Positions 1,568 through 54,983 of a stretch of DNA of 56,023 nt are shown here, one piece after another. The DNA comes from Minisyncoccota bacterium (GTDB taxonomy: Bacteria > Patescibacteriota > Minisyncoccia > Phycocordibacterales > PALSA-1337), in NCBI GenBank assembly GCA_028713005.1, contig JAQTPC010000006.1, forward strand, positions 1-56,023, in the 5' to 3' direction. How positions within the stretch are numbered: position 1 is the stretch's first letter; the number at the start of each line of letters is the position of its first letter. Below the pieces are notes generated by a model that saw only the letters and a list, made by a program, of their open reading frames with translations, searched no databases and was not told the DNA's origin. Both the position numbers and the translations under genes were made by a program.

Positions 1568-4500
1568 GCCTGTTGACAAAACTACGAGTGCGCCACTACC
1601 AATATCAACACCTGAATTATACGGATCAATGTAGAGCTGAGCAAAGCTGGTACCATTAGCAGCGATACCGCTAATCATTGAGTTATTGTTACTAATGTTA
1701 CTGCCGAGAGCGACACCGTTTGCGGTATTTGCTTTTCGGAATACTGCTGCGACTCCATTATTACTGCCGATAACATCGAGGGTCCGAGTTGGGGTAGCTG
1801 TACCAATACCCACATTTCCACCATATGGATTGAGAATAATATTATTAGTTGTACCAGATGAACCGATCGTGAGATTTCCCGATGCTGAAGTTATAGGATT
1901 TGAGAATGTCGTCGAAGCGGTTGATGTGAACGAAACAACACCTGCACCACTTCCTATGATTGCACCTTGTCCTGCACCAACTATAATTCGATTTCCTGAT
2001 TGAGTATCAATGGTTGTATTTGAATTATTTAAACGAACATCACCAAAAAGACCTTGGCCGGAAGCGTTGAGTGTAACAAAATTCGATGTACTCGAAGCAT
2101 TGAGTCCATTTTGGAACCACGCGATACCTGTTGTAGCTTGGTTGGTTGCACCAAAGTTTGTGAGAGGGGTGAACGGATATACTGCACCAGAAGCTGATGA
2201 TGTTGCTACCCAGCGTACTCCCGTTGCTGTCGACATGAGGACATATCCTGCGGTGCCGACCGAGTTTGAACCATCATACAAACCGGAACGGACACGCATA
2301 TTTCCCTGCACATCGAGAGGTTGAGTTGGAGTGCTGTTACCGATCGCTACACTACCTCCACTCCAGAAGTTATATTGTGATGCACGGAACTCCATCGGCA
2401 AGTTAGCGGTATTTGCCGCATTAACAGAAGCGAATGCCACACCAGTTGAAAGAGTGATGTGCGGTTGAACCGTAAGATTTGAGTCCGGATTATTGACTGG
2501 ATCTGGCACCACATTAAAAGCATATGAACCTCCGCCATAGACTGATTTGAGCGCGCCAAGATGGCCTGAACCGTCATCCAAAATAATACCGCCTCCGCCA
2601 TTTGAACCTGCGGTGATCGCTGGTTTTACATAGGTAAAGCTTTCATTGAACGCACTAACGGTACTACCGAGAGTCATAACGGAGTCACTTGTAATTGTTT
2701 TGACAACTGATTGTGTACCCTCGCCTGGAACAAGAATAGTGTCTCCGACAGTCAACTCAGTAGTAAACGCACACGTATCGTCACAAGTGATATTTCCTAA
2801 TCCGTCATCAGTAATGTTTCCTGTACCTGCACCACTACTTCCAGTGATGATTGCATGACCTGTAACACTCAGTGGGCGCAGTGACTGATTCACTGTTCCA
2901 GTATTTGCACCAAATGAAAATACTTTTGAACCATACGTATAGGTATCAAGACCATTATTTGCATAATTATATGAATTGAGATCGCCACCATTACCATTAA
3001 CGCCAAATTGATAGAAATTTCCATTCGTATCATTTATCTGCATGAACTGATAACCGCCTGCGCTCGACGTCATATTCATGATTTGATTTGTGTTGCTCGT
3101 AAGATCAATACCGCCGGCGCTTAATGTCATCCAATTTGCTGACGTAGAATTTGTTACTTCACCAAAATATGCTGTATCGTTGTTATACACCATTGAGAAG
3201 GCCTTCGAACCTGCACTCGCATTTGTAAAAAGAAAACCAGTTCCATTCCAACCTGTTGTAGAATTTATTTTACCGATTGACGCAACACCATATCCTGGGA
3301 TAGCAGTAAATGATGAGCCATCTTTAACACTAAAACTTCCGTAGCCCGTAGGTGCACCACCGATAGTTGCACTATTTGAGACGACCAAGTTTGTAGTTGA
3401 TGCGGTACCTGAAACAGTGAGAGCTGTCGTACTCGCATTTACAAAATGTGACGTTGATGATGCATTCAAACCATTCTGGAACCAAGCGATACCTGTTGTC
3501 GCCTGATTTGTTGTTCCGTAGTTGGTGAGAGATGTGAATGGATATGCTGATGTCGGGAGACCGAGTGATGAAGTTGAAGTGAGAGTGTAGCCTCCTGTAT
3601 TGTTACCAACGAGAATGTTTCCATACGAAGGAGCTGTCGTAACTCCTGTACCTCCATAAAGGACACCTACTGAAGATGTAGCACTCACAACACCATTATT
3701 CGCCTGCAAAGGACCATTCAAGTTATTGAGTGTGAGTGTCGCGCCATTTCTGAGAGCGAGACTGCCGTTCTGATCGATCTGGAATGTTGTTGTGGTAGCA
3801 AAGCCAGATGTTGAGGTCGAAACACTAAAGAGTGCTGTAGTCGCACCAGCTGCGCCAGCGATTGCAAAACGTGAACCAGGCGTTGATGTACCGACGCCGA
3901 CATTTCCGTTTGAAAGGAGTGACAAGACGCTGAAGCTTGATTGACCAAAGAATTCAGCGATCTTTCCTGCTCCACTCTGCAAGACAGAAATAAATGTTGA
4001 GGATGTTGATGTTGAATTTTGAATATCACTGCGGAGCAACTGGCCAGGTGTGATATTTTGGATTGTCTGAGCAACCAGTGCTGATGGAACTGTACCGATA
4101 ACTTTACGTGGTGTCATTTCTGCATCAGCTTCGATCGTCACACCGAGGTAGAGAGTCTGGTTGAAATCAACTCCGGTAAATGGTGTAGTTGAACCGAGCA
4201 TTACACTGAAGAGACCATTCTTAACTACGACTTTATTTGATCCATTATCAAGCTCGGTCCAAATCGCCGCACCACCTGTAGGAACCGTATACAAACTAAA
4301 TGACGCCGTATAACTACCATCAGCAACTGCAATATTTGAAGCATTGGTCAACTTGCCTTGATAGTTGATTTGTTGATTGATAGCAGCTTGAGCCTGTGGT
4401 GTAAGGAACGATGTGAATGAACCGAACATGAGAACAAATACCAGAGCAGCGCCAGTCAACTTATTAGTACTATTCGTACGACGTGAGCGGACCATGTAAA

Positions 4501-5998
4501 TTGCCAGTACGATGATCGCCACAAGGATGATCAAGAACAAAAGTTGCGCTGTGTCTTTTGAGGAAGCTGGTGCTGAAAATACGAGTGCTTGAAGTGAACC
4601 AGCGATCTGCTTCAAACTCTGATTTTGATAATCGAGGACGCTGATAGCCAATGGGAATGATCCGACTGTATTGAGTGCACCGATACTTGCTTCGTAGAAT
4701 GTCTTGTCACTGTTAGCACGGAGCAGGAAGATAAATGCCTTTGATGAGTCTTTTGGATCAGTGAGTGACACAGCAATCGTCTTCAAAACTTCAGGAACCT
4801 TGTTGTACGCCAAACGGATCGTGAGATTACTCATGCCGTTAATCATGACCGTACTTGTACCACTCACGACGAGATCCTTTCCTTGCTGAATAAACTCGAA
4901 GTCGGCAATTGTTAGACGTGCAACCAATGGATCAACATACCCCGCTTGAGGCGCTGTAACAAATGGATTTACCCCGACTACTGATGAAGCTTGCGCCAAC
5001 GCACCTGATGAATAATTCCCCTCAGCATCTTTTGCAAAAATAGCATAGTAGTACGTTTTTCCGGCAACAGCAGTTGTATCAAAGAATGATTCACGTCCTC
5101 CTTCATAGACAAGCTTTCCATCGAATTGATCACGTGGGAAAAAGTTTTCTCCACGAACGATACGGACAGAATCAAAACGAGTATCACTTGGGTTTGTCCA
5201 GCTGAGATTGACACCATCTGAACCGATACGTGCGAACTCTGCAGTGAAATCAGATGGGTTAACGAGTGGTGAACGAACGAGAGTGAGTGTAGTAAATTCA
5301 ACCTGATATGAAAACTGATTACCCTGAACATCAACAACTGATACACGTGCGAAGTAATGTGTATTTGGAACGAGGCCTGGGATTGTCACTTCATGGAGAG
5401 TACTATACAAAATACTTGTGATTGAACCTGCCTCAAGATCAGATGTCAGTCCCCATGATACGGTTGAACGCGCTGGAGCTATTGTTCCAAAAGAAATATC
5501 AGCGTCAGACACATGAGCACTTACCTGCAATCCAAAGATGAATGATTGATTTGATGAACTACTTGGTGCAATAGCAGGTGTAGATGTTGCTACCACAACA
5601 ACTGGCACATCGAGAGTCGTTGTCGCTGCAGAAGCTGAAAGTCCAGAATAATTGAATGAAGTATCAAATGCTTGAACCTCGTATGTATATGTTGTACTTG
5701 CAAAGAGTCCTGTATCGACAAATGAAGCGCTGGTAGTTGTTGCTACTGCAAATGAATTGCGGTAGACGACATAGCCGCCAACTGCGATATTATCAGTTGA
5801 TGGCGTCCAGGTGAGATTGATTTGTGATTGTGATGCAGGAGTAGCAACGAGACCTGTTGGTGTTGAAGGTACTACGAAGTCACTCGCAAGCGTAGTAAAT
5901 GAAGCAGTGAAGGAACTACCAACTGATGCAAGTACTGGAAAGGTGCTCTGTGCGAAGAGTCCTGCAAGTACGAGAGTTGTGTAGATAAAATGCTTCAT
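1..5998 (-). CDS. Giant secreted surface/fibre-like protein; 5' end complete, 3' end runs off the window (at least 1999 codons)
   Basis: Absent from the ORF track because no stop lies in the window. The minus-strand frame from ATG 5998..5996 stays open to position 2, and no other ORF is listed in that frame. It starts with signal peptide MKHFIYTTLVLAGLFAQSTFPVLA. Three FN3-like modules follow (e.g. PTGLVATPASQSQINLTWTPSTDNIAVGGYVVYRN...TYTYEVQAFD), then a hydrophobic hairpin, then INYQGKLTNASNIAVADGSYTASFSLYTVPTGGAAIWTE. There are three copies of AYPFT.LTN(Y/F)G..NQATTGIAWFQNG.NASSTS.F, GNVGIGT..P motifs, and NTA(I/V)G..(A/S)L head/tail-fibre-like repeats (about 290..720). Confidence 0.85.
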   Translation of the reverse strand, partial: MKHFIYTTLVLAGLFAQSTFPVLASVGSSFTASFTTLASDFVVPSTPTGLVATPASQSQINLTWTPSTDNIAVGGYVVYRNSFAVATTTSASFVDTGLFASTTYTYEVQAFDTSFNYSGLSASAATTTLDVPVVVVATSTPAIAPSSSSNQSFIFGLQVSAHVSDADISFGTIAPARSTVSWGLTSDLEAGSITSILYSTLHEVTIPGLVPNTHYFARVSVVDVQGNQFSYQVEFTTLTLVRSPLVNPSDFTAEFARIGSDGVNLSWTNPSDTRFDSVRIVRGENFFPRDQFDGKLVYEGGRESFFDTTAVAGKTYYYAIFAKDAEGNYSSGALAQASSVVGVNPFVTAPQAGYVDPLVARLTIADFEFIQQGKDLVVSGTSTVMINGMSNLTIRLAYNKVPEVLKTIAVSLTDPKDSSKAFIFLLRANSDKTFYEASIGALNTVGSFPLAISVLDYQNQSLKQIAGSLQALVFSAPASSKDTAQLLFLIILVAIIVLAIYMVRSRRTNSTNKLTGAALVFVLMFGSFTSFLTPQAQAAINQQINYQGKLTNASNIAVADGSYTASFSLYTVPTGGAAIWTELDNGSNKVVVKNGLFSVMLGSTTPFTGVDFNQTLYLGVTIEADAEMTPRKVIGTVPSALVAQTIQNITPGQLLRSDIQNSTSTSSTFISVLQSGAGKIAEFFGQSSFSVLSLLSNGNVGVGTSTPGSRFAIAGAAGATTALFSVSTSTSGFATTTTFQIDQNGSLALRNGATLTLNNLNGPLQANNGVVSATSSVGVLYGGTGVTTAPSYGNILVGNNTGGYTLTSTSSLGLPTSAYPFTSLTNYGTTNQATTGIAWFQNGLNASSTSHFVNASTTALTVSGTASTTNLVVSNSATIGGAPTGYGSFSVKDGSSFTAIPGYGVASIGKINSTTGWNGTGFLFTNASAGSKAFSMVYNNDTAYFGEVTNSTSANWMTLSAGGIDLTSNTNQIMNMTSSAGGYQFMQINDTNGNFYQFGVNGNGGDLNSYNYANNGLDTYTYGSKVFSFGANTGTVNQSLRPLSVTGHAIITGSSGAGTGNITDDGLGNITCDDTCAFTTELTVGDTILVPGEGTQSVVKTITSDSVMTLGSTVSAFNESFTYVKPAITAGSNGGGGIILDDGSGHLGALKSVYGGGSYAFNVVPDPVNNPDSNLTVQPHITLSTGVAFASVNAANTANLPMEFRASQYNFWSGGSVAIGNSTPTQPLDVQGNMRVRSGLYDGSNSVGTAGYVLMSTATGVRWVATSSASGAVYPFTPLTNFGATNQATTGIAWFQNGLNASSTSNFVTLNASGQGLFGDVRLNNSNTTIDTQSGNRIIVGAGQGAIIGSGAGVVSFTSTASTTFSNPITSASGNLTIGSSGTTNNIILNPYGGNVGIGTATPTRTLDVIGSNNGVAAVFRKANTANGVALGSNISNNNSMISGIAANGTSFAQLYIDPYNSGVDIGSGALVVLSTGNVGIGTTSPYAKLSVVGQTVSSYFTATTSIASTFPYASTTALTVAGTNGLTVGSLNGPLQANNGVVSATSSVGVLYGGTGLTSAPSYGQVLVGNALGGYTLTATSSLGITGGSGAAYPFTPLTNYGVTNQATTGIAWFQNGINASSTSHFVYASTTALSVSGSATVGSKLSIGTANQDYDLSFSGGGVATIGSAGPGGMTGITIDSTDSTENLRFTVGDSEKMRIDVNGYVGIGTQAPAYALDVNGFVNVTGTTGYKQNGETILVASSTTLSVLLGGGAGASLNDPNGLSNTAIGYSTLGTATSSVENTAVGYNALANNATNFNTAVGTWSMYANTYGIDNTAIGGYSLRFNTTGSSSAAGGTSALQANTTGSYNTGFGKAALRFNSTGSNNTALGFRSLFNALGSGNVGIGFSAGKYETGSDSFYVDNQDRITTAGDKAGALLYGKFNATAANQTLIINASTTVAQNFSVLGTGSSYFTGNLGIGTTSPFAKLSVVGQAVASYFTATTSTASSFPYASTTA

Positions 5999-15732: not shown

Positions 15733-15805
15733 TGCCAAGGACCAGGATCGAACTGGTGACCCTTCCCTCTTCAGGGGAATGCTCTACCAACTGAGCTACC
15801 TTGGC
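15733..15805 (-). tRNA. tRNA-Phe (GAA)
   Basis: The reverse complement is GCCAAGGTAGCTCAGTTGGTAGAGCATTCCCCTGAAGAGGGAAGGGTCACCAGTTCGATCCTGGTCCTTGGCA. It folds as a cloverleaf with anticodon loop CTGAAGA. CCA is not encoded. Confidence 0.95.
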
Positions 15806-16153: not shown

Positions 16154-16225
16154 GCCCTCGTAGTTCAACGGATAGAACAACTCCGTCCTAAGGAGTGGAT
16201 GTCAGTTCAATTCTGGCCGAGGGTA
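16154..16225 (+). tRNA. tRNA-Arg (CCT)
   Basis: GCCCTCGTAGTTCAACGGATAGAACAACTCCGTCCTAAGGAGTGGATGTCAGTTCAATTCTGGCCGAGGGTA folds as a cloverleaf with anticodon loop GTCCTAA and a G1-U72 pair. CCA is not encoded. Confidence 0.9.
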
Positions 16226-27326: not shown

Positions 27327-28085
27327 TTACGCTTCAATCTTTGAGAAAAGATACGCACCAACTGCTATCGCAAGAACAACTACACCTGAAAGGACAAGCG
27401 CATCTGTGAAAAGACCGAAATGTGTAACTCCAGTAAGTACATGTCTCATAGCGTCCACACCGTACGTAAGCGGATTGATATCTGAAACAATACGGATAGC
27501 AGTAGGTGCCGTGTCGAGCGGAAAAAGTGCTCCTGCAAGAAAGAATAGAGGCATGACAAGTAGGTTCACAATGAGACCGAAGCCTTGAATATCCTGCATA
27601 AGTGATCCAAAAATAGTACCAAGTGCAGCAAAAATCACTGCAATGGTAAACATGACTACCAAACTCAGCAATGCTCCGATGATAGTCGTATGGAACCCGA
27701 CACAGAAAGTAATGAGAAGGACAATACTTCCCTGAAAAAATGCTGTCGTTGCTCCACCTAACGTGCGCCCAATCATAACAGCAGTGCGGCTCACAGGTGC
27801 GACCAGGGTCTCTTTGAGAAAACCAAATCGACGATCCCAGATGATCTCGATGCCAGAAAAAACTGCCGCAAACAATATACTCATAGCAATGATGCCAGGT
27901 GAAAGAAATAGTATATAATCCCCTCCTCCCCCTTTTTCAAATATTGGACCGAGGCCAAAACCAAGTACCAGAAGGAAAAGAAGTGGTTGACCGAGGGAGC
28001 CGATGATGCGCGACTTCGAACGAAAATATTTCTTTATCTGCCTAAGCCAGAGGATATAGATTGTAGTGAGAGTAGTTGAGTTCAT
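27327..28085 (-). CDS. ABC-2 type transporter permease
   Basis: Six hydrophobic segments, and it immediately follows the ATPase gene (3-nt gap). Confidence 0.85.
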   Translation of the reverse strand: MNSTTLTTIYILWLRQIKKYFRSKSRIIGSLGQPLLFLLVLGFGLGPIFEKGGGGDYILFLSPGIIAMSILFAAVFSGIEIIWDRRFGFLKETLVAPVSRTAVMIGRTLGGATTAFFQGSIVLLITFCVGFHTTIIGALLSLVVMFTIAVIFAALGTIFGSLMQDIQGFGLIVNLLVMPLFFLAGALFPLDTAPTAIRIVSDINPLTYGVDAMRHVLTGVTHFGLFTDALVLSGVVVLAIAVGAYLFSKIEA

Positions 28086-28088
28086 ATT

Positions 28089-28901
28089 CTATTTTTTATT
28101 GCCACCAAACATCTTGCGCATTGAACGGAGATGATCGACGGAGTCCACGCTCTCTTCGCGGATGTCATGACCAGTCAGCTTGATAAAAGCATCCTCCAAT
28201 GTAGTACCGCCATTTTTTGAAATGATACCTTGGACTGTATCGCTTGCCACCATCCCTCCGTGGTCTATGACGACAACATGATCAGCAACACGCTCAACTT
28301 CGTCCATATAATGTGTAGTAAAGAAAACGGTCAAACCCTTCTCAGCATTGAGCTTCTTTATATATGACCAGATATGATTGCGTGTCTGTGGATCGAGGCC
28401 AACTGTTGGCTCATCGAGAAATAGAACCGCTGGCGTATGGAGGAGACCACGCGCTATTTCGAGGCGACGCTTCATGCCACCGGAAAAGTTTTTTACAAAA
28501 TCATCTTTACGATCCCAGAGTTCGACAAATCTCAATAACTCCTCAATACTCGTCTTCGCTTCGCTTTTCGGTACACCGAAGATACCCGCATGAAAAGCCA
28601 TATTCTCATATGCAGAGAGATCGTCATCAAGGCTCGCGTCTTGAAAGACGATACCACATGATTTCCTCACTGCATGAGGATCCTTTGATGGATCAAAGCC
28701 ATTGATGGTGATAGTGCCAGATGTTGGAGCCAGAAGCGTCGTAAGCATCCTGATTGTAGTCGTCTTTCCTGCACCATTGGGACCAAGGAAAGCAAATGTA
28801 CTACCTTTTGGAACTTCAAATGACACATCCTTTACTGCCTCAAACCCACCTTTAAAGGTTTTGGTGAGATTCTGTACTGATATGGCTTGATTGGTACTCA
28901 T
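28089..28901 (-). CDS. ABC transporter ATP-binding protein (DrrA/ABC-2 type)
   Basis: Walker A GPNGAGKTTT, signature FSGGMKRRLEIARGL and Walker B VLFLDEPTVGLD are present. Confidence 0.95.
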   Translation of the reverse strand: MSTNQAISVQNLTKTFKGGFEAVKDVSFEVPKGSTFAFLGPNGAGKTTTIRMLTTLLAPTSGTITINGFDPSKDPHAVRKSCGIVFQDASLDDDLSAYENMAFHAGIFGVPKSEAKTSIEELLRFVELWDRKDDFVKNFSGGMKRRLEIARGLLHTPAVLFLDEPTVGLDPQTRNHIWSYIKKLNAEKGLTVFFTTHYMDEVERVADHVVVIDHGGMVASDTVQGIISKNGGTTLEDAFIKLTGHDIREESVDSVDHLRSMRKMFGGNKK

Positions 28902-28919: not shown

Positions 28920-30113
28920 TTACTTGAGTATAGTGTAGAAATGATCAAATGTTTTTTGAAACTCACTAATCAAATAGGAATTATCTGTTACAAAAGCATT
29001 TTCATCATTATTATAAAATCCCCAGAGACTCCAGTTCTGAGAGCCAAAGACGAGCACCTTACCATCAGCGATAAGCGAGTGATGGTGGATATACGGAGCA
29101 AAATCATCTGGTAATACATCAATAGATTGAGCAGGTAGTTTTGTATCAAGTATTATTTCTAAGTTATTAAGACCAAGCTTCTCTTTTTGTTCCTGAAGAT
29201 ATGGGATCATCGACGCTTCCGTAGAAGCCGTAGCAACTTCAGCAATGATACGAACTTTCACGCCTGCCTGAACCCTCTTTACAACAGCAGAAGCAACTTG
29301 CCGATCAGTGATATCCCACATCATGAGATCAAGAGTTTTTTCAGATTTACCGATAATATCTATGATTCGATATTTTACTGCTTGTTTTCCAAAGCCCGGA
29401 GAAAACCATACTTCAATAAAACTATCTGTGTACTGTATCGTAGTGGCCCACGGATTGTACGTTGTGACTGCTAATTTTTTTGTCCCTGATATTTTCTGCT
29501 TAAGTAGATCAAATTCTTTTCCATAAACAGTTACCAAATCATGATCATGTGTCACCAAAAAATAACTCTGATTGTATTTTTCGCCCCAGGTAGTGAAATT
29601 AAAAGACCCTGTCGTCAGTTGCTCTGTAGAATATCCTCGATCAACAATCATGAACTTATCATGCATGTAAACTTTTTTAAGTGAATCGATTGCATCATAT
29701 TTACCCGCATCAATCCTTTGGATAGTAGTAGGTAAATCAGAGAATACATAATCATGTTGCTTAGCTTTTGAGGTATTGAGTACGAGCGTCACTTTTACCC
29801 CTCTTTTATCGGCGGCATATATCGCCTGTTTCAATTCATCTGAACTAAATGAAAAGATAGCCAATTCAAGCGTATGTTGAGCTGAATCAATCTGTTTTTT
29901 CAATATATCCAATGAGCCTGTCTGTCCAACGGTATTATTGAAATATATATCTGAATCAAAAGGATGCTGAACAATGATGCTTTCTTGTGGACCAAAAACA
30001 AAGACCCTTTTTTCATTACTGTACAGAGCAAACCTGACACTCCCATAAACTACAGTACCAGCTAAAACTAAAAAAATGAGAATTGTGTATTTAAGCTGTA
30101 AGGCGAACTTCAT
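28920..30113 (-). CDS. TM-anchored phospholipase D / HKD-superfamily protein
   Basis: The N-terminal TM is KYTILIFLVLAGTVVYGSV. The first HKD is YMHDKFMIVD...GSFN. The second is IHHHSLIADGKVLVFGSQN, with Ser in place of Lys. The start ATG (30113, alternatives 30128 and 30137) overlaps the upstream gene. Confidence 0.8.
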   Translation of the reverse strand: MKFALQLKYTILIFLVLAGTVVYGSVRFALYSNEKRVFVFGPQESIIVQHPFDSDIYFNNTVGQTGSLDILKKQIDSAQHTLELAIFSFSSDELKQAIYAADKRGVKVTLVLNTSKAKQHDYVFSDLPTTIQRIDAGKYDAIDSLKKVYMHDKFMIVDRGYSTEQLTTGSFNFTTWGEKYNQSYFLVTHDHDLVTVYGKEFDLLKQKISGTKKLAVTTYNPWATTIQYTDSFIEVWFSPGFGKQAVKYRIIDIIGKSEKTLDLMMWDITDRQVASAVVKRVQAGVKVRIIAEVATASTEASMIPYLQEQKEKLGLNNLEIILDTKLPAQSIDVLPDDFAPYIHHHSLIADGKVLVFGSQNWSLWGFYNNDENAFVTDNSYLISEFQKTFDHFYTILK

Positions 30114-31824
30114 TTTGTTCGATGACATAGCGCTCATTATATATGATTGAAAAATTTATTTCTCTTGAGAAGACAACGAGCGTAGATTCTGGAAGTTCAG
30201 CGTCCAAGATATGTAGCAATGCTGTTATATCTGCATACCCACTATCGACCCACTGATTATCAACAACGATCAATTGCGGTCGACTAATGATGCAGTGCAG
30301 AGTTTGAACTGCAAATAATAATGTTGGACTATCACTGAAAATTGAGAGCGGTTCGCCGATAAATCTCTTCTTGCTCCGAATCTTAGAAAAAACAGGATAT
30401 TTTTGGCATAGCGTATACACCCGTGCAATATCATCTTCAGTGATTTGCTGCATCTCTTTTGCAAAAATAATCTCACCGATAGTCTTTTCACTATATACGT
30501 GAGGAGCAAAAAAATAACGATTCGCATATTCTTGTGCCCATGTATTCCCATCAACCCTTTTTGCGTCGATCTTCACTACCCAGCCAAGCGGATTGAATAC
30601 TGCATTGCCAGTAAACAGACGTGCAAGAGCCGTCTTACCTGTATACGCCGCACCAGTAAATAAATACCTTTGTCCCCGACGAAGCGAGATAGAGACGCGC
30701 TTCATGTAATTCCCTTCGACAAATAACTTGATCTTATTTGAGATGAATGTGATATGGTTCCACGTATCTTTGTTTATCTGGCGAAGCGATGTTGCGCCCT
30801 CAGGTATAGCGAGAAACAAACCAAGCTTAAGTGGCAACAGATACAAACCTGTCTGAACTGACTCATACAAGAAACGGATAGCATAGAGCGAGATGATCGT
30901 AGCAAGTATAGTAGTAGCCGGGTCATACAAGAACGAAATCAACTCTGGATGAGAAAAGCTAATAATAATAAGGATGCTTGTGGCAGCAAATACCCCCGCA
31001 AAAAATACCCTATTAAGATACCGCAACCAAATATCACGACGTATTCTGAAATAGGTATCAACTCCGACACGAGCATCGAGCGCATCAAGTGCAGATTGCT
31101 CGCCTTGCAAAATCTTTGTGAATGACAGCTCTGAAAGAGTCAAGGTCACGTGACGTATCACCTGAGAGTATGAGGCAACCTCTCGGGAGATGAAATACCG
31201 GGCAATGCCATATGAGATTAGACCAACACAAACTCCTAGGAATACGAGAGCAGCAATGCCGATAATATAATGTGGACCCGCAATAATACTGAGTGATATC
31301 AATACAACAGCCATGATGACCCAACGTACACTGCCCAACAAACTATGATCGACGCCGAGCGATAATAACGGCAGATGATATGATACTTTAGCTATAAAAT
31401 CAGCCTTCTCTTCATTGGTAACTGATGTGTATGAGCGACGTAAAAGCACAGAAAAAAGACGTTTGCGAATATCGTTTATAAGACCGAGGACAAGGGTTCT
31501 TTCAAATTTGATAGTGAGATATGTCACACACAGATAAAGCAATGCGCCACAGAGCACAGAGATAATAAAGACAGATAGTGCTTTTGTATGAAGCGCATAG
31601 TATATCTGTTCGCGAATCGATCCATTGAGAAAGATGAGCACTCCGATTTCAATGATAGCTTGGGCAACTATAAGAGACGGTAGAATAAGGATTGAGCGCG
31701 TATTCTTTTGTAAAAACTGGCGTATATAATGCCAATGATGCCTCTCAAGCCTCATCGGACGGATAGACTGTTTTATGATGCGCCTCTGTTGATACAAGAG
31801 CGCCTGCCTGCCGATATTAAACAT
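30091..31824 (-). CDS. ABC-exporter-like protein (6-TM domain plus degenerate nucleotide-binding domain)
   Basis: The TMD runs from about ILILPSLIVAQAIIEIGVLIF to LGLFLAIPEG. In the NBD, Walker A is intact (GAAYTGKT), the signature is degenerate (LSIFSD), Walker B is LIVVDN (Asn in place of the catalytic Glu), and no H-loop His is recognisable. ATG 31824 overlaps the RT stop by 8 nt (ATGTTTAA). ATG 31755 is an alternative start. Confidence 0.75.
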   Translation of the reverse strand: MFNIGRQALLYQQRRIIKQSIRPMRLERHHWHYIRQFLQKNTRSILILPSLIVAQAIIEIGVLIFLNGSIREQIYYALHTKALSVFIISVLCGALLYLCVTYLTIKFERTLVLGLINDIRKRLFSVLLRRSYTSVTNEEKADFIAKVSYHLPLLSLGVDHSLLGSVRWVIMAVVLISLSIIAGPHYIIGIAALVFLGVCVGLISYGIARYFISREVASYSQVIRHVTLTLSELSFTKILQGEQSALDALDARVGVDTYFRIRRDIWLRYLNRVFFAGVFAATSILIIISFSHPELISFLYDPATTILATIISLYAIRFLYESVQTGLYLLPLKLGLFLAIPEGATSLRQINKDTWNHITFISNKIKLFVEGNYMKRVSISLRRGQRYLFTGAAYTGKTALARLFTGNAVFNPLGWVVKIDAKRVDGNTWAQEYANRYFFAPHVYSEKTIGEIIFAKEMQQITEDDIARVYTLCQKYPVFSKIRSKKRFIGEPLSIFSDSPTLLFAVQTLHCIISRPQLIVVDNQWVDSGYADITALLHILDAELPESTLVVFSREINFSIIYNERYVIEQNEVRLTA

Positions 31825-33046
31825 GTTTTTTAGGATAACGTACTTCCCTATAATACTCAAAGAGACTGCGGATTCCAGTCTTCCTCAAAACAGGCTCAAC
31901 TTCCCGACGATTTTTTGGCGTATATCTGCCCTTAAAATAAACCGTCAGCATATGAAAAAGCTTTTCAGAGAACTGCTTCATATATGCATCATCATCAACC
32001 AATCTCTTTTGATCAATAAGCTGAGTAAATTGATTATCAAAATTATCGGTTCCCTCCATAATGAGAGAGCGGATATGTTTCATCTTTGCTGAAACGCTTT
32101 TTGCGCGCGAAGAAAATATATCACGCTTCCATGATGCCAACGCCTTATTTCTTGAGCTTTCATCAAAACTAATCTTTCCCGCACGAAAGGAATATCCCAG
32201 AAATTTAAAAGGTTGGGTGCTCGGGATAAGTTTCGCCTTATCAGTATTGAGTCTTACTTTGAGATCCTGAACTGTCTTTGCGAGCTCACTGCCCACATGT
32301 GCTACTTTTTTTGCATCTTTATCCATAGCGATGATATCGTCTCCGACACGACGATAGAGCGCAACGGACTTCCCTGCCCATTTATCAAAATCATCCATAT
32401 AGAAGTTTGAAAGAAGCGCATACAACGGCGTTCCCGTGAGGACACCTCGAGGTCGTTCTATTAAAACTCCATCTTCCAATGTATTGGTTTTAATAAAAAG
32501 CTCCAGTAACCGGAGCGTCCGTGCATCAAGCCCAAGTCCAAGCAGTTTTTTCAAAAGAATGTCATGGTCAATTGTATCAGCATAATCCGAAATATCAGTC
32601 ACCAGTACATGATCTTCGCCATAATATCTCTTGTATCTGCGGGTGGCGCTTCGAGCCGCATAGTATGAAGGGTGAGAAGAGCGATATGAAAAAAGAAAAG
32701 GAGAAAAATAACTATCGAAAAATGGCAAGAGTACGCGATATATCGCTTCAGCTTTTATGCGCTCTTTGATCGAGTAGACGAATATCTTTCTCTTTTTGCC
32801 ATTCTTCTTGGGAATAGTCTGCATGTACGCAGGACGTATCTTTTTTAGATCACGCATTTCTTGCCTGATCACAGGAATTTCTTCAGTAGAAGAAAAATTG
32901 AGGGTATTGAGCTTAATGCCGTCGACTCCTCTGTACCTGCCCGCTTTTGATTCCTCGTCAAATTTTCTCACCAGATCAGTATATGCATGCGTGATATTTT
33001 CTGATGACGTGATCAGATCGAAGGCGTTTTCAGGAAAGACATTCAT
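31817..33046 (-). CDS. Reverse transcriptase (unclassified; not obviously retron, DGR or group II type)
   Basis: RT motifs: IPKKNGKKRKIF, FSYRSSHPSYYAA, VLVTDISDYADTIDHDILL, RGVLTGTPLYALLSNFYMDDF, ALYRRVGDDIIAM, VRLNTDKAKLI and FKFLGYSF, plus a helical C-terminal extension of about 110 aa. The start is trimmed from GTG 33169 to ATG 33046 (MNVFPENAF). Confidence 0.9.
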   Translation of the reverse strand: MNVFPENAFDLITSSENITHAYTDLVRKFDEESKAGRYRGVDGIKLNTLNFSSTEEIPVIRQEMRDLKKIRPAYMQTIPKKNGKKRKIFVYSIKERIKAEAIYRVLLPFFDSYFSPFLFSYRSSHPSYYAARSATRRYKRYYGEDHVLVTDISDYADTIDHDILLKKLLGLGLDARTLRLLELFIKTNTLEDGVLIERPRGVLTGTPLYALLSNFYMDDFDKWAGKSVALYRRVGDDIIAMDKDAKKVAHVGSELAKTVQDLKVRLNTDKAKLIPSTQPFKFLGYSFRAGKISFDESSRNKALASWKRDIFSSRAKSVSAKMKHIRSLIMEGTDNFDNQFTQLIDQKRLVDDDAYMKQFSEKLFHMLTVYFKGRYTPKNRREVEPVLRKTGIRSLFEYYREVRYPKKHV

Positions 33047-33065
33047 ATAGGAAACCGTAAACACT

Positions 33066-33257
33066 GATAGCACCACCGGAGAGCGACAGATACCGAACGG
33101 CCTGTCGCCATTCAAAAAGATAATTGGCGAAGCAAAATAATAAATTTTGCTTCGGCAAAAATAAATCACTTCACTTCTGACACCGGCATTAGGCGGTTGA
33201 TAATGTCAGAAGCCGGTAATTGATAATGCGCAACTAAGTTTCTTCGGTGATGCTATC
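33066..33257 (-). ncRNA. Candidate structured RT-associated ncRNA (retron/DRT-like architecture)
   Basis: On the minus strand, GAUAGCAUCACCG (33257..33245) pairs with CGGUGGUGCUAUC (33078..33066). That is 13 bp including one G-U, which would be a C-A mismatch on the plus strand. The helix encloses three hairpins: 33174..33212 (9 bp), 33128..33154 (11 bp) and 33083..33108 (7 bp). The structure ends 20 nt before the RT ATG. Confidence 0.5.
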
Positions 33258-33298
33258 AACGTTCACAGTATGTAAACATTCTAACATAACCACTCTGG

Positions 33299-35008
33299 CT
33301 ATGAATTTTTGACAAGATGCTTGAAAGCGTATTCGAGTGTACCTCCGACTTTCTTGCCAGGGTTGAATATTCCCTGTGGATCCCAAATCTTTTTAACCTC
33401 TTCAAAAAGCCTATACACCTCTTCACCATACTGCATCTTTACGAATGGTGTACGAATGATGCCATCATTATGCTCGCCACTAATCGAGCCGTTAAACTCA
33501 TGGACGAGCTTATACACCTTTACTGACAAATCTTCGATGATGGTATGTGACTTTGGGTCGTTCAGATTCATGAGCGGAATGATATGAAAGTTTCCATCTC
33601 CCACGTGTCCCGCAATCGTATAGGTGATGTCATGTTCATACTGACCGAGGATAGCGTAGAGGCGTGGTAAGAACTTTGGCAATGTCTCGGGTGGTACAAC
33701 AAAGTCATCGATGAATGGTGCGGTACGGACACCTTTGACATGCTGACGCAGCATATTGAAACTTTCACGACGAATGATCCAGTACTTATTTGATTGACGA
33801 GCTGTTTTGGTGACCAGGGACTTTTCATGGATATCTTTGAGCGAATCATGTGCAGCGATTGCGAGACGGAGAGCTTCTTCATCGGTATCGGCAGTGAACT
33901 CAGCCATAAGGACCATCTTTGGCACGCCGCCACGGACAACTGCGAGCATCTCAGGGATGAACTGAAAACCAAGTGAGATAATATTACCCTTCATTCTCTT
34001 GATAAGTGAAGGAAGGAACTTAAGAGCAACCTTAAATGTATGATCATCATACGACTCGAAGCTTTCTGGTTTGAACTGCATGATATGTGTCGCTGTTGGT
34101 GCAAGCTGTGCGAGGTCTTTGAGGAAGACTACCACCATGTGTGAATACTTCTTTGGCTTAACAAGTGCAAACTCAATCTCAGTGACGAGGCCGAGCGTGC
34201 CCTGAGAACCAACGATCATCTTTGTCAGATCAAATATACCCTTTTCCTTGTCCCAGACATTCCAGAGAAAATAGCCACTTGAGTTTTTCGAAACAACTGG
34301 CTTGGCTTTCTGTAGGATGTCATAGTTTTTGTCGAGCAACTCATGCATCTTACGGTATATGTCGCTTTCAAAACTAGGAAGTTTCTTTGCTTGCTCCAAC
34401 TGATGCATAGTGAGCGGTTGGAAGGTATGTTCTTTACCGTCTGCAGTAACCATGTTGAGACGACGAACATAGCGTTCAGTCTTGCCGTAGGTGAGCGTCT
34501 TTTCTCCTCCAGAATTGTTCGCCACCATACCACCGACAGTACAGAGCTCGCGCGATGCAGGATAACTCGGCATGATCTGACCACCTGCTGCGAGAGTGAC
34601 TTTATCAAAATCGCGATAGTATACACCAGGCTCAGTCACTGCGTAACCACTGATTTCGACGCCAACAATAGGATCAAGAGTTTTTTCTTTGACTTCCTTT
34701 ATGTGACTGAAATTTTTGGTGAAATCAACAACGATGGACTCTGTGAGCGGACCACCTGACATATCTGTACCAGCTGAGCGCGCGGTGAGGGTAAGCTTTG
34801 GTTCGGCAATTGAACTATTTGAACGGTGAAGAGCTTCATCGGCGACATAACGGACGAGTTTTTCTACATCAGCAGTATTTTTTGGTGTGACAACGACAGA
34901 TGGCCTTACTTCGAACAGACTCGCATCATGACTGGCCTTATCGAGACTGTACTCACTGGTACTGACATCCCCTTCTATTATTTTTGAAAGTTTTTTTATG
35001 TCCAACAT
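33299..35008 (-). CDS. FAD-linked oxidase (GlcD / FAD_binding_4 family)
   Basis: ARSAGTDMSGGPL, GGMVANNSGGEKT and the C-terminal GSISGEHNDG are present. ATG 35008 has TATAAT 6 nt upstream. Confidence 0.9.
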   Translation of the reverse strand: MLDIKKLSKIIEGDVSTSEYSLDKASHDASLFEVRPSVVVTPKNTADVEKLVRYVADEALHRSNSSIAEPKLTLTARSAGTDMSGGPLTESIVVDFTKNFSHIKEVKEKTLDPIVGVEISGYAVTEPGVYYRDFDKVTLAAGGQIMPSYPASRELCTVGGMVANNSGGEKTLTYGKTERYVRRLNMVTADGKEHTFQPLTMHQLEQAKKLPSFESDIYRKMHELLDKNYDILQKAKPVVSKNSSGYFLWNVWDKEKGIFDLTKMIVGSQGTLGLVTEIEFALVKPKKYSHMVVVFLKDLAQLAPTATHIMQFKPESFESYDDHTFKVALKFLPSLIKRMKGNIISLGFQFIPEMLAVVRGGVPKMVLMAEFTADTDEEALRLAIAAHDSLKDIHEKSLVTKTARQSNKYWIIRRESFNMLRQHVKGVRTAPFIDDFVVPPETLPKFLPRLYAILGQYEHDITYTIAGHVGDGNFHIIPLMNLNDPKSHTIIEDLSVKVYKLVHEFNGSISGEHNDGIIRTPFVKMQYGEEVYRLFEEVKKIWDPQGIFNPGKKVGGTLEYAFKHLVKNS

Positions 35009-54223: not shown

Positions 54224-54309
54224 TATGAGAGTAGCTCAGCCGGCTAGAGCGCCACGGATGCCAGCTACACATCGTGGAGGTCGCGAGTTCAAGTCCCGCC
54301 TCTCATACC
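54224..54309 (+). tRNA. Aberrant tRNA-like gene: normal acceptor, D and T arms but a 16-nt anticodon loop; CCA encoded
   Basis: ATGAGAG-TA-GCTC-AGCCGGCTA-GAGC-G-CCACG-[GATGCCAGCTACACAT]-CGTGG-AGGTC-GCGAG-TTCAAGT-CCCGC-CTCTCAT-A-CCA. It has an A1-U72 pair and one A-C mismatch in the T stem. I cannot assign an isotype. Confidence 0.55.
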
Positions 54310-54900: not shown

Positions 54901-54983
54901 TGGTCACGGGGGGACTCGAACCCCCAATCCTGAAAGGAATACGCTTCTGAAGCGTACGTGTATACCAATTCCACCACGTGACC
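54901..54983 (-). tRNA. tRNA-Leu (CAG), type II with a long variable arm
   Basis: The reverse complement is GGTCACGTGGTGGAATTGGTATACACGTACGCTTCAGAAGCGTATTCCTTTCAGGATTGGGGGTTCGAGTCCCCCCGTGACCA, with anticodon loop TTCAGAA. CCA is not encoded. Confidence 0.9.

What the first reader, a model, noticed from the sequence alone, without database searches (positions are those of the whole stretch)
33066..33257. Retron-like RNA architecture immediately upstream of the RT
On the RT strand, GAUAGCAUCACCG (33257..33245) pairs with CGGUGGUGCUAUC (33078..33066) over 13 bp. The single non-Watson-Crick position is a G-U on this strand but a C-A mismatch on the other. That argues the transcript shares the RT's strand. 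The helix encloses three stem-loops:
- CUUCUGACA/UGUCAGAAG, 9 bp, at 33174..33212
- CGAAGCAAAAU/AUUUUGCUUCG, 11 bp, at 33128..33154
- GCGACAG/CUGUCGC, 7 bp, at 33083..33108

A terminal inverted repeat (a1/a2) enclosing internal hairpins just 5' of the RT gene is the established layout of retron msr-msd RNAs. DRT2- and DRT9-type systems also use adjacent structured RNAs.
Basis: partly seen in the sequence, partly recalled or inferred. Interest (0 to 1): 0.75.

Follow-up and report, generated by a model that had tools for sequence, protein, structure and literature searches.

The report
Conserved structured RNA partnering a reverse transcriptase

Summary
The long-range helix is 25 bp (33269-33245 with 33078-33054, minus strand). 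The fold is far better than shuffles (z = -7.3).

In 79 of 102 related sequences searched, two covariance models find the same RNA. Every hit is on the RT strand, upstream of the RT. In 55 distinct sequences, 49 of 49 modelled pairs show compensatory changes, and G-U outnumbers A-C about 5:1, so it is an RNA on the RT strand. No Rfam family matches.

The RT is not a retron RT. By sequence and predicted fold it is a full-length group-II-intron-like enzyme (TM 0.8 to GsI-IIC RT; DRT9 next; retron Ec86 0.44). There is no intron RNA and no conserved branching G.

It heads a fixed cassette, found mostly in Patescibacteria: ncRNA, RT, a degenerate ABC-exporter-like membrane protein, and a membrane-anchored PLD/Nuc-type nuclease.

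Most likely the RNA is the RT's scaffold and template, as in DRT2/9/10. The template itself is not identified. Hairpin P3 is hypervariable, depleted of G-U pairs, and replaced between tandem RNA copies.

The parts
33278..33305 (-). Promoter-like site: TTCATA, 16 nt, TG-n-TAGAAT (extended -10). It would start transcription about 2-6 nt before the first base of P1.
   Evidence: scan; an extended -10 (TGnTAnAAT) lies at the same distance upstream of P1 in the close relatives L099, L100, L103, L104, L105, L077 and L005. This is a consensus match only. The transcript start has not been shown.
33054..33269 (-). The whole non-coding RNA (about 216 nt), from the P1 5' arm to the P1 3' arm. It ends 7 nt before the RT start codon.
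   Evidence: Fold z = -7.3. Covariance model R1 hit at 33259..33064, 162.9 bits. No Rfam family matches.
33245..33269 (-).
   Evidence: 18-20 P1 pairs, nearly all with compensatory changes across homologues.
33054..33078 (-).
   Evidence: In many homologues this arm reaches to or over the RT start codon.
33224..33229 (-). Pseudoknot 5' strand, GCAUUA.
   Evidence: Pairs with the P2 apical loop. 5 of 6 pairs covary in 18 sequences (99.1% paired). 6 of 6 pairs covary in 55 sequences (98.4% paired). The pseudoknot was not part of the covariance model.
33186..33191 (-). Pseudoknot 3' strand, UAAUGC, in the apical loop of P2.
33164..33221 (-). P2: a composite stem. The flanks AAUUA and GUGAARUGAU are conserved.
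33124..33158 (-).
   Evidence: Across loci its length is 13-190 nt and its sequence cannot be aligned. It is often a perfect 16-26 bp hairpin. G-U pairs make up 3.6% here against 9.6% in scaffold helices, Fisher p = 4e-6. It is replaced between tandem copies that are otherwise 90-100% identical.
33109..33123 (-). J3/4: a conserved A/U-rich single strand, UUAUCUUUUUGAAUG, between P3 and P4. It is a candidate template window.
   Evidence: Conserved. Its position between two helices resembles the DRT10 template loop (DOI 10.64898/2026.06.29.735271). The role is an inference. An A-B-A' repeat was tested and not supported.
33083..33108 (-).
   Evidence: 10 pairs, 100% paired, 7 with double changes. 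95.8% paired in 55 sequences.
31817..33046 (-). Reverse transcriptase, 409 aa. Group-II-intron-like, with active-site motif VGDD.
   Evidence: Pfam RVT_1. Best PDB matches are group II intron RTs. AlphaFold2 pLDDT 89.9. The start codon is supported by the alignment of N-termini.
30091..31824 (-). Type IV ABC-exporter-like membrane protein, 577 aa. Its nucleotide-binding domain is degenerate. Its start overlaps the RT stop.
   Evidence: Weak ABC_membrane and ABC_tran hits. AlphaFold2 pLDDT 82.8. Foldseek matches MsbA, P-gp, PCAT1 and TM287/288 at about 1e-13 over the full length. Walker A is kept, Walker B is D-N, and there is no LSGGQ motif and no H-loop His.
28920..30137 (-). PLD-family (Nuc/NucT/DrmC-like) two-domain nuclease, 405 aa, with an N-terminal membrane anchor.
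   Evidence: Two PLDc_2 domains. NucT, DrmC and DpdK hits. The first HKD motif is canonical and the second is HxH. Residues about 11-35 are hydrophobic.

Best explanation
The element is a roughly 216-nt structured non-coding RNA. It is transcribed from its own promoter on the RT strand, and it either forms or is cut from the 5' leader of the RT operon.

[quoted passage not shown] The conserved scaffold positions the RT on the RNA. That scaffold is the closing helix P1, the pseudoknot with P2, the P4 loop, and the single strands AAAC and J3/4. The RT then copies an internal segment of the same RNA into DNA, as the class 2 UG systems DRT2, DRT9 and DRT10 do.

The copied segment is most likely J3/4 and/or the hypervariable hairpin P3. 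P3 acts either as the 5' template boundary or as the cargo itself.

The DNA product, or its accumulation on infection, would then be coupled to the two membrane proteins encoded downstream: an ATP-binding but probably non-hydrolysing ABC-exporter-like protein and a membrane-anchored PLD/Nuc nuclease. This parallels the ncRNA-RT-transmembrane-effector logic proposed for DRT10.

Shown: the structure, the strand, co-inheritance with the RT, the cassette, and the RT and effector folds.

Inferred: transcription, RT binding, templating, the product, and a defence role.
For: Structure and strand:
- Fold z = -7.3.
- 96% and 94% of cells are paired, against 31-48% in slid controls. 42 of 51 and 49 of 49 pairs are compensatory.
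- The pseudoknot covaries even though the model did not contain it.
- G-U to A-C is 81:15 and 223:45.

Co-inheritance with the RT:
- Models R1 and R2 hit 79 of 102 sources in about 1 Mb searched on both strands. All real hits are on the RT strand and upstream of the RT, usually 1-50 nt from the ATG.
- The RNA appears to stay with the RT where the effector genes lie on the other strand, on thin evidence: a weak model hit (E about 0.02) upstream of the RT in L069 and a single-sequence fold in L051; L067, L071 and L076 gave no hit.
- A conserved extended -10 sits just before P1.

Cassette:
- RT, ABC-like and PLD genes occur together in essentially every locus long enough to see them. Flanking genes differ.

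RT kinship:
- Group II intron RTs come first (6e-37; TM 0.78-0.81). Then Cas6-RT-Cas1, DRT9 (9e-21; TM 0.65-0.68), G2L4, DRT2, and retron RTs last.
- PADLOC ranks RT_UG26, UG17 and Drt9 high. UG17 (DRT10) is the former G2L3 (PMC8632793).

Analogy with characterised systems:
- In DRT10 the 5' and 3' ends pair to form SL1, and the template sits in a loop between two helices (DOI 10.64898/2026.06.29.735271).
- Class 2 DRTs make ncRNA-templated DNA (PMC13174585 abstract). DRT2 and DRT9 have their ncRNA immediately upstream of the RT (PMC12483538).

P3 behaves as a module:
- Six loci carry two tandem RNAs with 90-100% identical scaffolds but unrelated P3.
- P3 helices are depleted of G-U pairs, p = 4e-6. 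That is what would be expected if the complement must also fold.
Against: - There are no expression, binding or cDNA data for any member.
- No recognisable template signature was found. There is no universal U-tract. The A-B-A' repeat in J3/4 is no better than shuffles (0 of 55 loci at p < 0.05).
- No strictly conserved C-terminal Tyr or Ser stands out as a protein primer.
- The RT's nearest solved relatives are intron RTs, which use DNA or RNA 3' ends as primers. They are not the protein-primed UG enzymes.
- The P1 3' arm abuts or covers the start codon. A purely cis-regulatory leader would predict the same thing.
- The partner proteins are membrane proteins with a degenerate ATPase. A defence role is an analogy only. 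No known defence genes were seen next to the cassette in the loci inspected.
Confidence: 0.6

Rival explanations
1. It is a genuine retron. P1 is a1/a2. P2 and the pseudoknot are the msr. P3 (with or without P4) is the msd. The RT primes from the 2'-OH of a G next to a1 and makes branched msDNA.
For: The layout matches: a terminal inverted repeat encloses hairpins directly 5' of the RT. P3 is a hypervariable hairpin poor in G-U pairs, as a retron msd would be. Effector genes follow the RT.
Against: - Retron RTs are the most distant RT class hit: profile E 4e-6 to 4e-4 against 6e-37 for intron RTs; Foldseek TM 0.44-0.51 against 0.8; retron_St85_RT 31 bits against a cut-off of 235.
- No retron model is among the best 25 PADLOC hits.
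- There is no invariant unpaired G after the 5' arm. Those positions vary or are paired, and the family consensus there is AAAC.
- The element adjoining the 3' arm is the conserved hairpin P4, not the variable one.
- Rfam's msr and RT-associated motifs do not hit.
Confidence: 0.06
2. It is a cis-acting 5' leader and not a template. It could be an autoregulatory RT-binding site (like DIVa of group II introns) or a ligand- or protein-sensing switch. It would control translation of the operon by sequestering the ribosome-binding region in P1.
For: - The P1 3' arm ends 0-30 nt from the ATG, and in some loci it includes the ATG.
- There is no terminator between the RNA and the RT.
- Intron-type RTs do bind a stem-loop at their own start codon (established knowledge of LtrA and DIVa).
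- Conserved loops and junctions with variable peripheral stems are typical of riboswitch aptamers.
Against: - P1 is 13-30 bp and very stable, so it is unsuited to switching.
- In six loci the upstream copy of a tandem pair lies about 180-440 nt from the ATG. In L085 the RNA is 1.8 kb from the RT, across an opposite-strand ORF.
- A pseudoknotted RNA of 200 nt or more is larger than a simple operator.
- Every characterised RT with a conserved adjacent RNA of this size uses it as scaffold and template (PMC12483538, PMC12632851).
- The two roles are not mutually exclusive.
Confidence: 0.17
3. It is the remnant of a group II intron, or an unusually small one, whose RNA domains flank the RT ORF.
For: The RT is a full-length homologue of intron-encoded proteins: TIGR04416 at 1.4e-40, and TM 0.8 to GsI-IIC RT including the thumb and C-terminal domain.
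Against: - Rfam finds no intron domain (Intron_gpII, D1-D4) in the window or in six other loci.
- The RT stop codon overlaps the next gene, so there is no room for domains V and VI.
- Only about 200 nt lie upstream, where several hundred would be needed for domains I-III.
- TIGR04416 scores 139 bits against a cut-off of 300.
- The flanks are intact housekeeping genes with no interrupted host gene.
Confidence: 0.04
4. It is a DNA-level element: the terminal inverted repeats of a small mobile element, or a recombination or protein-binding site. It would not be an RNA.
For: The inverted repeats fold on both strands (z = -6.3 on the plus strand). P3 is often a perfect DNA palindrome. The cassette sits in different genomic contexts.
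Against: - Strand asymmetry is strong: G-U over A-C at 81:15 and 223:45.
- Covariation preserves pairing rather than sequence in six helices, including a pseudoknot that has no meaning in duplex DNA.
- Orientation relative to the RT is fixed in 79 sources.
- No transposase or integrase is conserved nearby.
Confidence: 0.03

Closest known systems
DRT10 (UG17, formerly G2L3): ncRNA + RT + SLATT membrane effector
   Same: - A structured ncRNA with its 5' and 3' ends paired into a closing helix, and several internal stem-loops.
- A single-stranded window between two helices (DOI 10.64898/2026.06.29.735271).
- An RT of group-II-like ancestry (PMC8632793).
- A transmembrane effector encoded alongside (DOI 10.64898/2026.04.29.721553).
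- The PADLOC UG17 model hits this RT at 1e-28.
   Different: - The RT is not a UG17 member (98 bits only).
- The effectors are an ABC-exporter-like protein and a PLD nuclease, not SLATT.
- The RNA is directly upstream of the RT, not upstream of the SLATT gene.
- The RNA has a pseudoknot and a hypervariable hairpin.
- The A-B-A' template signature is not detectable.
- No conserved C-terminal priming residue is evident.
- The hosts are Patescibacteria.
DRT9 (UG28) and DRT2 (UG2): ncRNA immediately upstream of the RT
   Same: - The gene order is ncRNA then RT, on one strand.
- The RNA carries conserved stem-loops that serve as scaffold and template (PMC12483538, PMC9226505).
- DRT9 is the closest solved non-intron RT: 9e-21 and TM 0.65-0.68.
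   Different: - There is no universally conserved poly-U tract (DRT9), and no conserved coding potential across a template junction (DRT2), because the variable part is not conserved at all.
- Scores are far below the family cut-offs: Drt2 53 bits against 390.
- DRT2 and DRT9 need no additional protein, whereas two membrane proteins are invariably linked here.
Retron msr-msd RNA
   Same: - A terminal inverted repeat encloses hairpins just 5' of the RT.
- One hairpin is hypervariable between systems.
- Effector genes lie in the same operon.
   Different: - The RT clade differs.
- There is no conserved branching G.
- The terminal helix is 13-30 bp.
- There is a pseudoknot.
- A conserved hairpin, not the variable one, abuts the 3' arm.
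Free-standing group-II-intron-like (G2L) RTs, such as G2L4
   Same: The nearest relatives are intron-encoded RTs, and no intron RNA is present. That is the definition of G2L (PMC8632793).
   Different: - G2L4 itself is distant (2.5e-11; TM 0.71).
- As far as the papers read here say, G2L RTs have not been described with a dedicated structured RNA. G2L4 works in DNA repair without one (DOI 10.1101/2022.03.14.484287 abstract).
- The active-site motif here is VGDD.
Telomerase RNA core domain
   Same: A long-range enclosing helix, a pseudoknot, and a helix next to a single-stranded stretch within one RNA bound by an RT. Class 2 UG RTs have been linked to TERT (PMC12632851). TERT is a weak hit of the RT profile at 2e-5.
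   Different: This is a resemblance of layout only. Here the pseudoknot lies 5' of the candidate template, whereas in telomerase RNA it lies 3' of the template. No repeat-alignment signature was found. There is no evidence for repeat synthesis.

Membership tests
Retron | A non-coding RNA bounded by inverted repeats (a1/a2), directly upstream of the RT on the same strand. | tested here: met
   P1 is 25 bp at 33269..33245 with 33078..33054 and ends 7 nt before the ATG. It is conserved in homologues.
Retron | The RT belongs to the retron RT clade. | tested here: not met
   Retron RTs score E 4e-6 to 4e-4 against 6e-37 for group II intron RTs. Foldseek TM is 0.44-0.51 against 0.78-0.81. NF038233 retron_St85_RT scores 31 bits against a cut-off of 235. 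No retron model is among the top 25 PADLOC hits.
Retron | A conserved branching guanosine immediately 3' of a1, used as the 2'-OH primer. | tested here: not met
   The positions after the 5' arm are G/U/A, G/A, A/G and G/C/A. They are mostly paired with CUCC on the 3' side. The family-wide consensus after P1 is AAAC. There is no invariant unpaired G.
Retron | Production of branched multicopy single-stranded DNA from the msd. | not testable with these tools
   This needs nucleic-acid extraction from expressing cells. The only indirect hints are that P3 is hypervariable and G-U-poor.
Class 2 UG/Abi RT-ncRNA systems (DRT2, DRT9, DRT10) | A conserved structured ncRNA encoded next to the RT on the same strand. 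| tested here: met
   Covariance models hit 79 of 102 sources, always on the RT strand and upstream of the RT. Covariation is shown.
Class 2 UG/Abi RT-ncRNA systems (DRT2, DRT9, DRT10) | The RT falls within a named UG group (UG2, UG28, UG17 or UG26). | tested here: inconclusive
   PADLOC scores are RT_UG26 119 bits, UG17 98, Drt9 81 and Drt2 50. All are partial-length and no better than a generic RT model at 135 bits. NCBIfam Drt2 scores 53 bits against 390, and Drt3a 57 against 200. No phylogeny was built.
Class 2 UG/Abi RT-ncRNA systems (DRT2, DRT9, DRT10) | A recognisable template signature: a poly-U tract (DRT9) or an A-B-A' microhomology loop (DRT10). | tested here: not met
   There is no universal U-tract. 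J3/4 is A/U-rich but variable. The direct-repeat test gave 0 of 55 loci at p < 0.05 and a median p of 0.59. The test has little power for repeats of 2-3 nt.
Class 2 UG/Abi RT-ncRNA systems (DRT2, DRT9, DRT10) | A C-terminal hydroxyl residue that primes DNA synthesis. | tested here: inconclusive
   The C-terminal tails are basic and often hold Tyr or Ser (for example KKYGK, RYPKKHV), but no position is conserved.
Group II intron | An RT homologous to intron-encoded proteins (RT, thumb/X, D domains). | tested here: met
   TIGR04416 at 1.4e-40. GsI-IIC RT at TM 0.78-0.81 over about 435 columns.
Group II intron | Ribozyme domains I-VI flanking the ORF, with domains V and VI downstream. | tested here: not met
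   No Rfam intron family matches in the window or in six other loci. The RT stop overlaps the next gene.
G2L (free-standing group-II-like RTs) | Closest to intron RTs but lacking the intron RNA. | tested here: met
   The definition is from PMC8632793. Placement in a named G2L clade was not tested. G2L4 is only 2.5e-11.
Any Rfam family (release 15) | A match to a curated covariance model. | tested here: not met
   Only chance-level hits, far below the gathering scores, at permissive E-values on the window region and six loci. The whole window at gathering threshold gives 4 tRNAs only.

The most novel reading that the evidence does not exclude
This is a new class of RT-RNA system, derived independently from a group II intron RT. 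The conserved pseudoknotted scaffold presents an exchangeable cargo hairpin (P3). The RT copies P3 into Watson-Crick-perfect hairpin DNA. That DNA is then handed to, sensed by, or exported and processed at the membrane by a non-hydrolysing ABC-exporter-like protein and an anchored PLD nuclease. Genomes that carry two tandem RNAs or up to three cassettes would thus hold a small repertoire of different DNA products. If so, it would be a convergent, retron-like use of an intron-type RT in the reduced genomes of Patescibacteria, with a membrane-linked output not seen in any characterised RT system.
Probability: 0.2. Interest if true: 0.85.

Novelty: new variant of a known kind. Interest (0 to 1): 0.72.

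Why it matters
Every RT-associated non-coding RNA studied so far has revealed a new way of making DNA: branched msDNA (retrons), gene-assembling concatemers (DRT2), poly-dA (DRT9), and telomerase-like repeats (DRT10).

This RNA is as well supported by covariation as any of those, and it is absent from Rfam. It partners an RT that is structurally an intron enzyme rather than a UG or retron enzyme. It is linked to effectors (an ABC-exporter-like protein and a PLD nuclease) not known from other RT systems.

It is widespread in Patescibacteria, whose reduced genomes sometimes carry two or three copies. That suggests real selective value in organisms where almost nothing is known about RT biology or defence.

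The finding gives a compact system that can be tested directly: about 220 nt of RNA plus a 409-aa RT. It bears on how intron RTs were domesticated and on what DNA such a system makes.

Tried and rejected
1. Telomerase/DRT10-like A-B-A' template in J3/4. By eye many loci show short direct repeats (for example UUUAUA..UUUAUA, GAAU..GAAU). A shuffle test gave 0 of 55 loci at p < 0.05 and a median p of 0.59. I do not claim it.

2. Direct repeats flanking P3, as needed for DRT2-like template jumping. They are present in the window and in L099 but absent in L100 and L104. I dropped the idea after inspecting.

3. P3 as a guide or target mimic. P3 sequences match nothing else in about 1 Mb of loci plus the window, apart from orthologous P3s. 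The window's P3 has no exact 20-mer match in IMG/VR.

4. C-terminal priming tyrosine. No position is conserved.

5. Phage origin. Only 1 relative was found in 2.9 million viral contigs.

6. Known RNA families. There were no Rfam hits at permissive thresholds.

7. Metagenome scan with the single protein. It found nothing. The scan with an alignment gave 22 loci.

8. Literature. Six full-text searches found no description of an RT + ABC-like + PLD cassette or of this RNA. The UG/Abi paper's supplements are not held. The library is incomplete, so prior description cannot be excluded.

9. UG26 membership. The best named PADLOC hit is only 119 bits and partial. UG26 is reported with Vsr-type endonucleases, not this cassette (PMC9226505).
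Full report
**1. What is in the sequence**

On the minus strand, a FAD-linked oxidase gene ends at 33299 and a 409-aa reverse transcriptase (RT) starts at the ATG at 33046. The alignment of homologue N-termini supports that start.

The long-range helix is longer than reported. It has 25 uninterrupted pairs (33269..33245 with 33078..33054), plus three more pairs after one mismatch. The intergenic RNA folds to -92.6 kcal/mol, against -59.9 +/- 4.5 for shuffles (z = -7.3). The plus strand also folds well (z = -6.3), as any set of inverted repeats would. Folding energy alone therefore does not give the strand.

A promoter-like site with an extended -10 (TTCATA, 16 nt, TGnTAGAAT; 33305..33278) would start transcription a few bases before the helix. 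The same TGnTAnAAT box sits at the same distance in the close relatives.

**2. Relatives**

The RT has 148 detectable relatives in the 5.8-billion-protein collection, almost all from Patescibacteria/CPR metagenome-assembled genomes. I collected 76 loci from species-representative genomes, 22 from metagenomes, 9 from contigs encoding the closest proteins, and the single viral-contig hit.

In essentially every locus long enough to judge, the RT is followed by a homologue of the 577-aa protein and then by a homologue of the 405-aa PLD protein. In five loci (L051, L067, L069, L071, L076) that gene pair lies on the other strand. Flanking genes differ from locus to locus. Several MAGs hold two cassettes, and one Saccharibacteria MAG holds three. 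An intergenic region of about 200-300 nt always precedes the RT.

**3. The RNA is conserved and covaries**

Independent folding of each upstream region recovers the same plan:

- P1: a closing helix of 13-30 bp whose sequence differs between loci.
- A conserved AAAC.
- A strand that pairs with the apical loop of P2, forming a pseudoknot.
- P2, with conserved AAUUA and GUGAARUGAU flanks.
- P3: a variable region.
- J3/4: an A/U-rich single strand.
- P4: a hairpin with a covarying stem and, in the window's subgroup, a conserved GGCCGUUYGGYAUC loop.
- The 3' arm of P1, which ends 0-50 nt before the ATG.

A structure-blind MAFFT alignment of 18 sequences (A3) gave an RNAalifold structure in which 37 of 45 pairs have double compensatory changes. 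With the pseudoknot added, 96.4% of cells are paired, against 32-45% when partners are slid by 1-3 columns. 42 of 51 pairs have changes on both sides, and no shuffle in 500 reached the observed values.

Covariance model R1, searched over 1.04 Mb on both strands, gave 59 hits in 55 sources. All were on the RT strand and upstream of the RT. The window hit is 33259..33064 at 162.9 bits.

A second model, built from a distant subgroup (A6 and R2), added 24 sources and cross-hit the first subgroup. The total is 79 of 102 sources. The only minus-strand hits are four weak echoes at the coordinates of much stronger plus-strand hits.

On the 55 distinct sequences of the R1 alignment, 94.1% of cells are paired (31-48% when slid) and all 49 pairs show compensatory change. 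The pseudoknot was not in the model, so it serves as an independent check. It is 98.4% paired, with all six pairs covarying.

G-U cells outnumber A-C cells 81:15 and 223:45. The pairing is therefore selected in an RNA of the RT's polarity. No Rfam family matches.

**4. What the RT is**

- A profile of the family finds group II intron RTs first among solved structures (GsI-IIC, 5.9e-37). Next come Cas6-RT-Cas1 (1e-31), DRT9 (9e-21), DRT2 (3e-13) and G2L4 (2.5e-11). Retron RTs (about 1e-5) and TERT (2e-5) come last.
- NCBIfam gives group_II_RT_mat at 1.4e-40, but at 139 bits against a cut-off of 300. Drt2, Drt3a and retron models are far below their cut-offs.
- PADLOC gives a generic RT model first, then RT_UG26, the RT of Cas1 fusions, UG17 and Drt9.
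- The AlphaFold2 model (pLDDT 89.9) superposes over its full length on GsI-IIC RT (TM 0.78-0.81). The values are 0.71 for G2L4, 0.65-0.68 for DRT9, 0.52 for DRT2 and 0.44 for retron Ec86.
- There are no intron ribozyme domains, and the RT stop overlaps the next gene.

This fits the definition of a free-standing group-II-like (G2L) RT (PMC8632793). The same review notes that the old G2L3 group is UG17, now DRT10.

**5. The partners**

The 577-aa protein has only marginal Pfam hits. Its model (pLDDT 82.8) is a type IV ABC exporter half-transporter: it matches MsbA, P-glycoprotein, PCAT1, TM287/288 and ABCB10 at about 1e-13 over the full length. Its Walker A motif is conserved. However, Walker B reads D-N in place of D-E, and the LSGGQ signature and the H-loop histidine are missing throughout the family. 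It probably binds ATP and hydrolyses it poorly, if at all. That last point is an inference.

The 405-aa protein has two PLDc_2 domains that are most like the NucT, DrmC and DpdK nucleases. It also has an N-terminal hydrophobic anchor. Its first HKD motif is canonical and its second is a conserved HxH variant.

**6. The variable hairpin P3**

P3 ranges from 13 to about 190 nt and cannot be aligned between loci. It is often a perfect 16-26 bp hairpin. Measured with one method across the whole RNA, P3 helices have 3.6% G-U pairs against 9.6% in scaffold helices (Fisher p = 4e-6; the cells are not fully independent).

Six loci (L001, L014, L017, L049, L050, L074) carry two tandem copies of the RNA. 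In those pairs the scaffolds are 90-100% identical, while P3 is unrelated. P3 therefore turns over as a module.

This fits a sequence-specific cargo, for example a segment copied into DNA that must itself fold. It fits less well a mere structural roadblock, although a template-boundary role is not excluded. P3 sequences match nothing else in the material at hand.

**7. Mechanism**

The best-supported reading is that this RNA is the RT's dedicated partner, serving as scaffold and internal template. That is the case in the class 2 UG systems, where the ncRNA lies next to the RT (DRT2 and DRT9; PMC12483538, PMC9226505). In DRT10 the 5' and 3' ends pair into a closing helix, and the template lies in a single-stranded window between two helices (DOI 10.64898/2026.06.29.735271). 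DRT10 also couples its DNA product to a transmembrane effector (DOI 10.64898/2026.04.29.721553). That offers a precedent for the two membrane proteins here.

I could not identify the template. There is no universal U-tract. The A-B-A' repeat I thought I saw in J3/4 is not above chance. No C-terminal priming residue is conserved.

A cis-regulatory role for P1, which abuts or covers the start codon, may coexist with the partner role. As the sole function it fits poorly with the tandem upstream copies and with L085, where the RNA lies 1.8 kb from the RT.

**8. Comparison and novelty**

- It works most like the DRT2/9/10 ncRNAs.
- It is not a member of those families by RT score.
- It is not a retron: two defining features were tested and not met.
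- It is not a group II intron: there is no ribozyme.
- It fits the G2L definition.

G2L RTs have not been described with a dedicated RNA in the papers I could read. I found no description of this cassette, but the library is incomplete.

I therefore rate it a new variant of a known kind (RT plus partner RNA). It is of high interest to specialists and offers a compact system that can be tested directly.

Noticed in passing
L001 5548-5723 & 5779-5960; L014 2556-2880 & 2969-3305; L017 927-1188 & 1233-1507; L049 5625-5802 & 5810-5991; L050 5527-5702 & 5830-5998; L074 5393-5651 & 5697-5980: Six loci carry two tandem copies of the RNA upstream of one RT. Within a pair the scaffolds are 90-100% identical, but the P3 region is unrelated. 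The 3' arm of copy 1 can also pair with the 5' arm of copy 2.
   Followed up: partly
L034 about 5870-5930 (P3 of its RNA): In this locus the variable region is not a hairpin. It is a run of about eight pentanucleotide repeats, (AACUR)n. This is unexplained.
   Followed up: no
L085 159-370 (RNA), 436-1842 (opposite-strand ORF, 468 aa), 2174 (RT start): A 468-aa ORF on the other strand lies between the RNA and its RT. It may be an insertion. The ORF was not identified.
   Followed up: no
window 32335-32349 (RT residues 233-237) and the family alignment A1: The RT active-site motif is R-V-G-D-D (invariant R233, G235, D236, D237), not the usual Y/F-x-D-D. In motif A the conserved aromatic residue (Y155) sits one position earlier than in LtrA-type enzymes. 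Some homologues have faint precomputed RdRP_1 hits. The consequences for substrate choice are unknown.
   Followed up: no
window 30091-31824: The ABC-exporter-like protein keeps Walker A. Throughout the family it has D-N in place of the Walker B D-E, and lacks both the LSGGQ signature and the H-loop His. It looks like a non-hydrolysing ABC fold.
   Followed up: yes
window 28920-30137: In the PLD nuclease the second HKD motif is a conserved HxH variant. The protein begins with a hydrophobic anchor, so the nuclease may act at or outside the membrane.
   Followed up: partly
Loci L029, L030, L034 (MAG CAYOAT01); L057, L059 (PHAI01); L017, L018; L012, L026; L037, L053; L019, L032: Several Patescibacteria MAGs, whose genomes are presumably small (genome sizes were not checked here), carry two complete cassettes, and one carries three. 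Each cassette has different P1 and P3 sequences.
   Followed up: no
window 27327-28901: Directly downstream of the cassette lies an ordinary ABC-2 transporter pair: an ATPase (PF00005, 1e-34) and a permease (PF01061). ATPase homologues occur at varying positions near the cassette in eight other loci. This is probably generic similarity rather than linkage.
   Followed up: partly
Loci L006-L008, L010, L011, L016, L020, L023, L025, L027 and others: Many contigs carrying this Patescibacteria-type cassette come from MAGs titled 'uncultured Gammaproteobacteria'. A few come from Flavobacteriaceae or Longimicrobiales bins. Mislabelling or bin contamination seems likely but was not checked.
   Followed up: no
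L053, L054, L035, L058, L060 (P1 3' arm): In the distant subgroup the P1 3' arm (UUGGGGGUGAUUUUUAAAAUAUG) includes a purine-rich Shine-Dalgarno-like stretch and runs into the RT start codon. Formation of P1 could therefore also gate translation.
   Followed up: no
window 15733-15805, 16154-16225, 54225-54307, 54901-54983: Four tRNA genes are the only Rfam matches at gathering score in the whole window.
   Followed up: no
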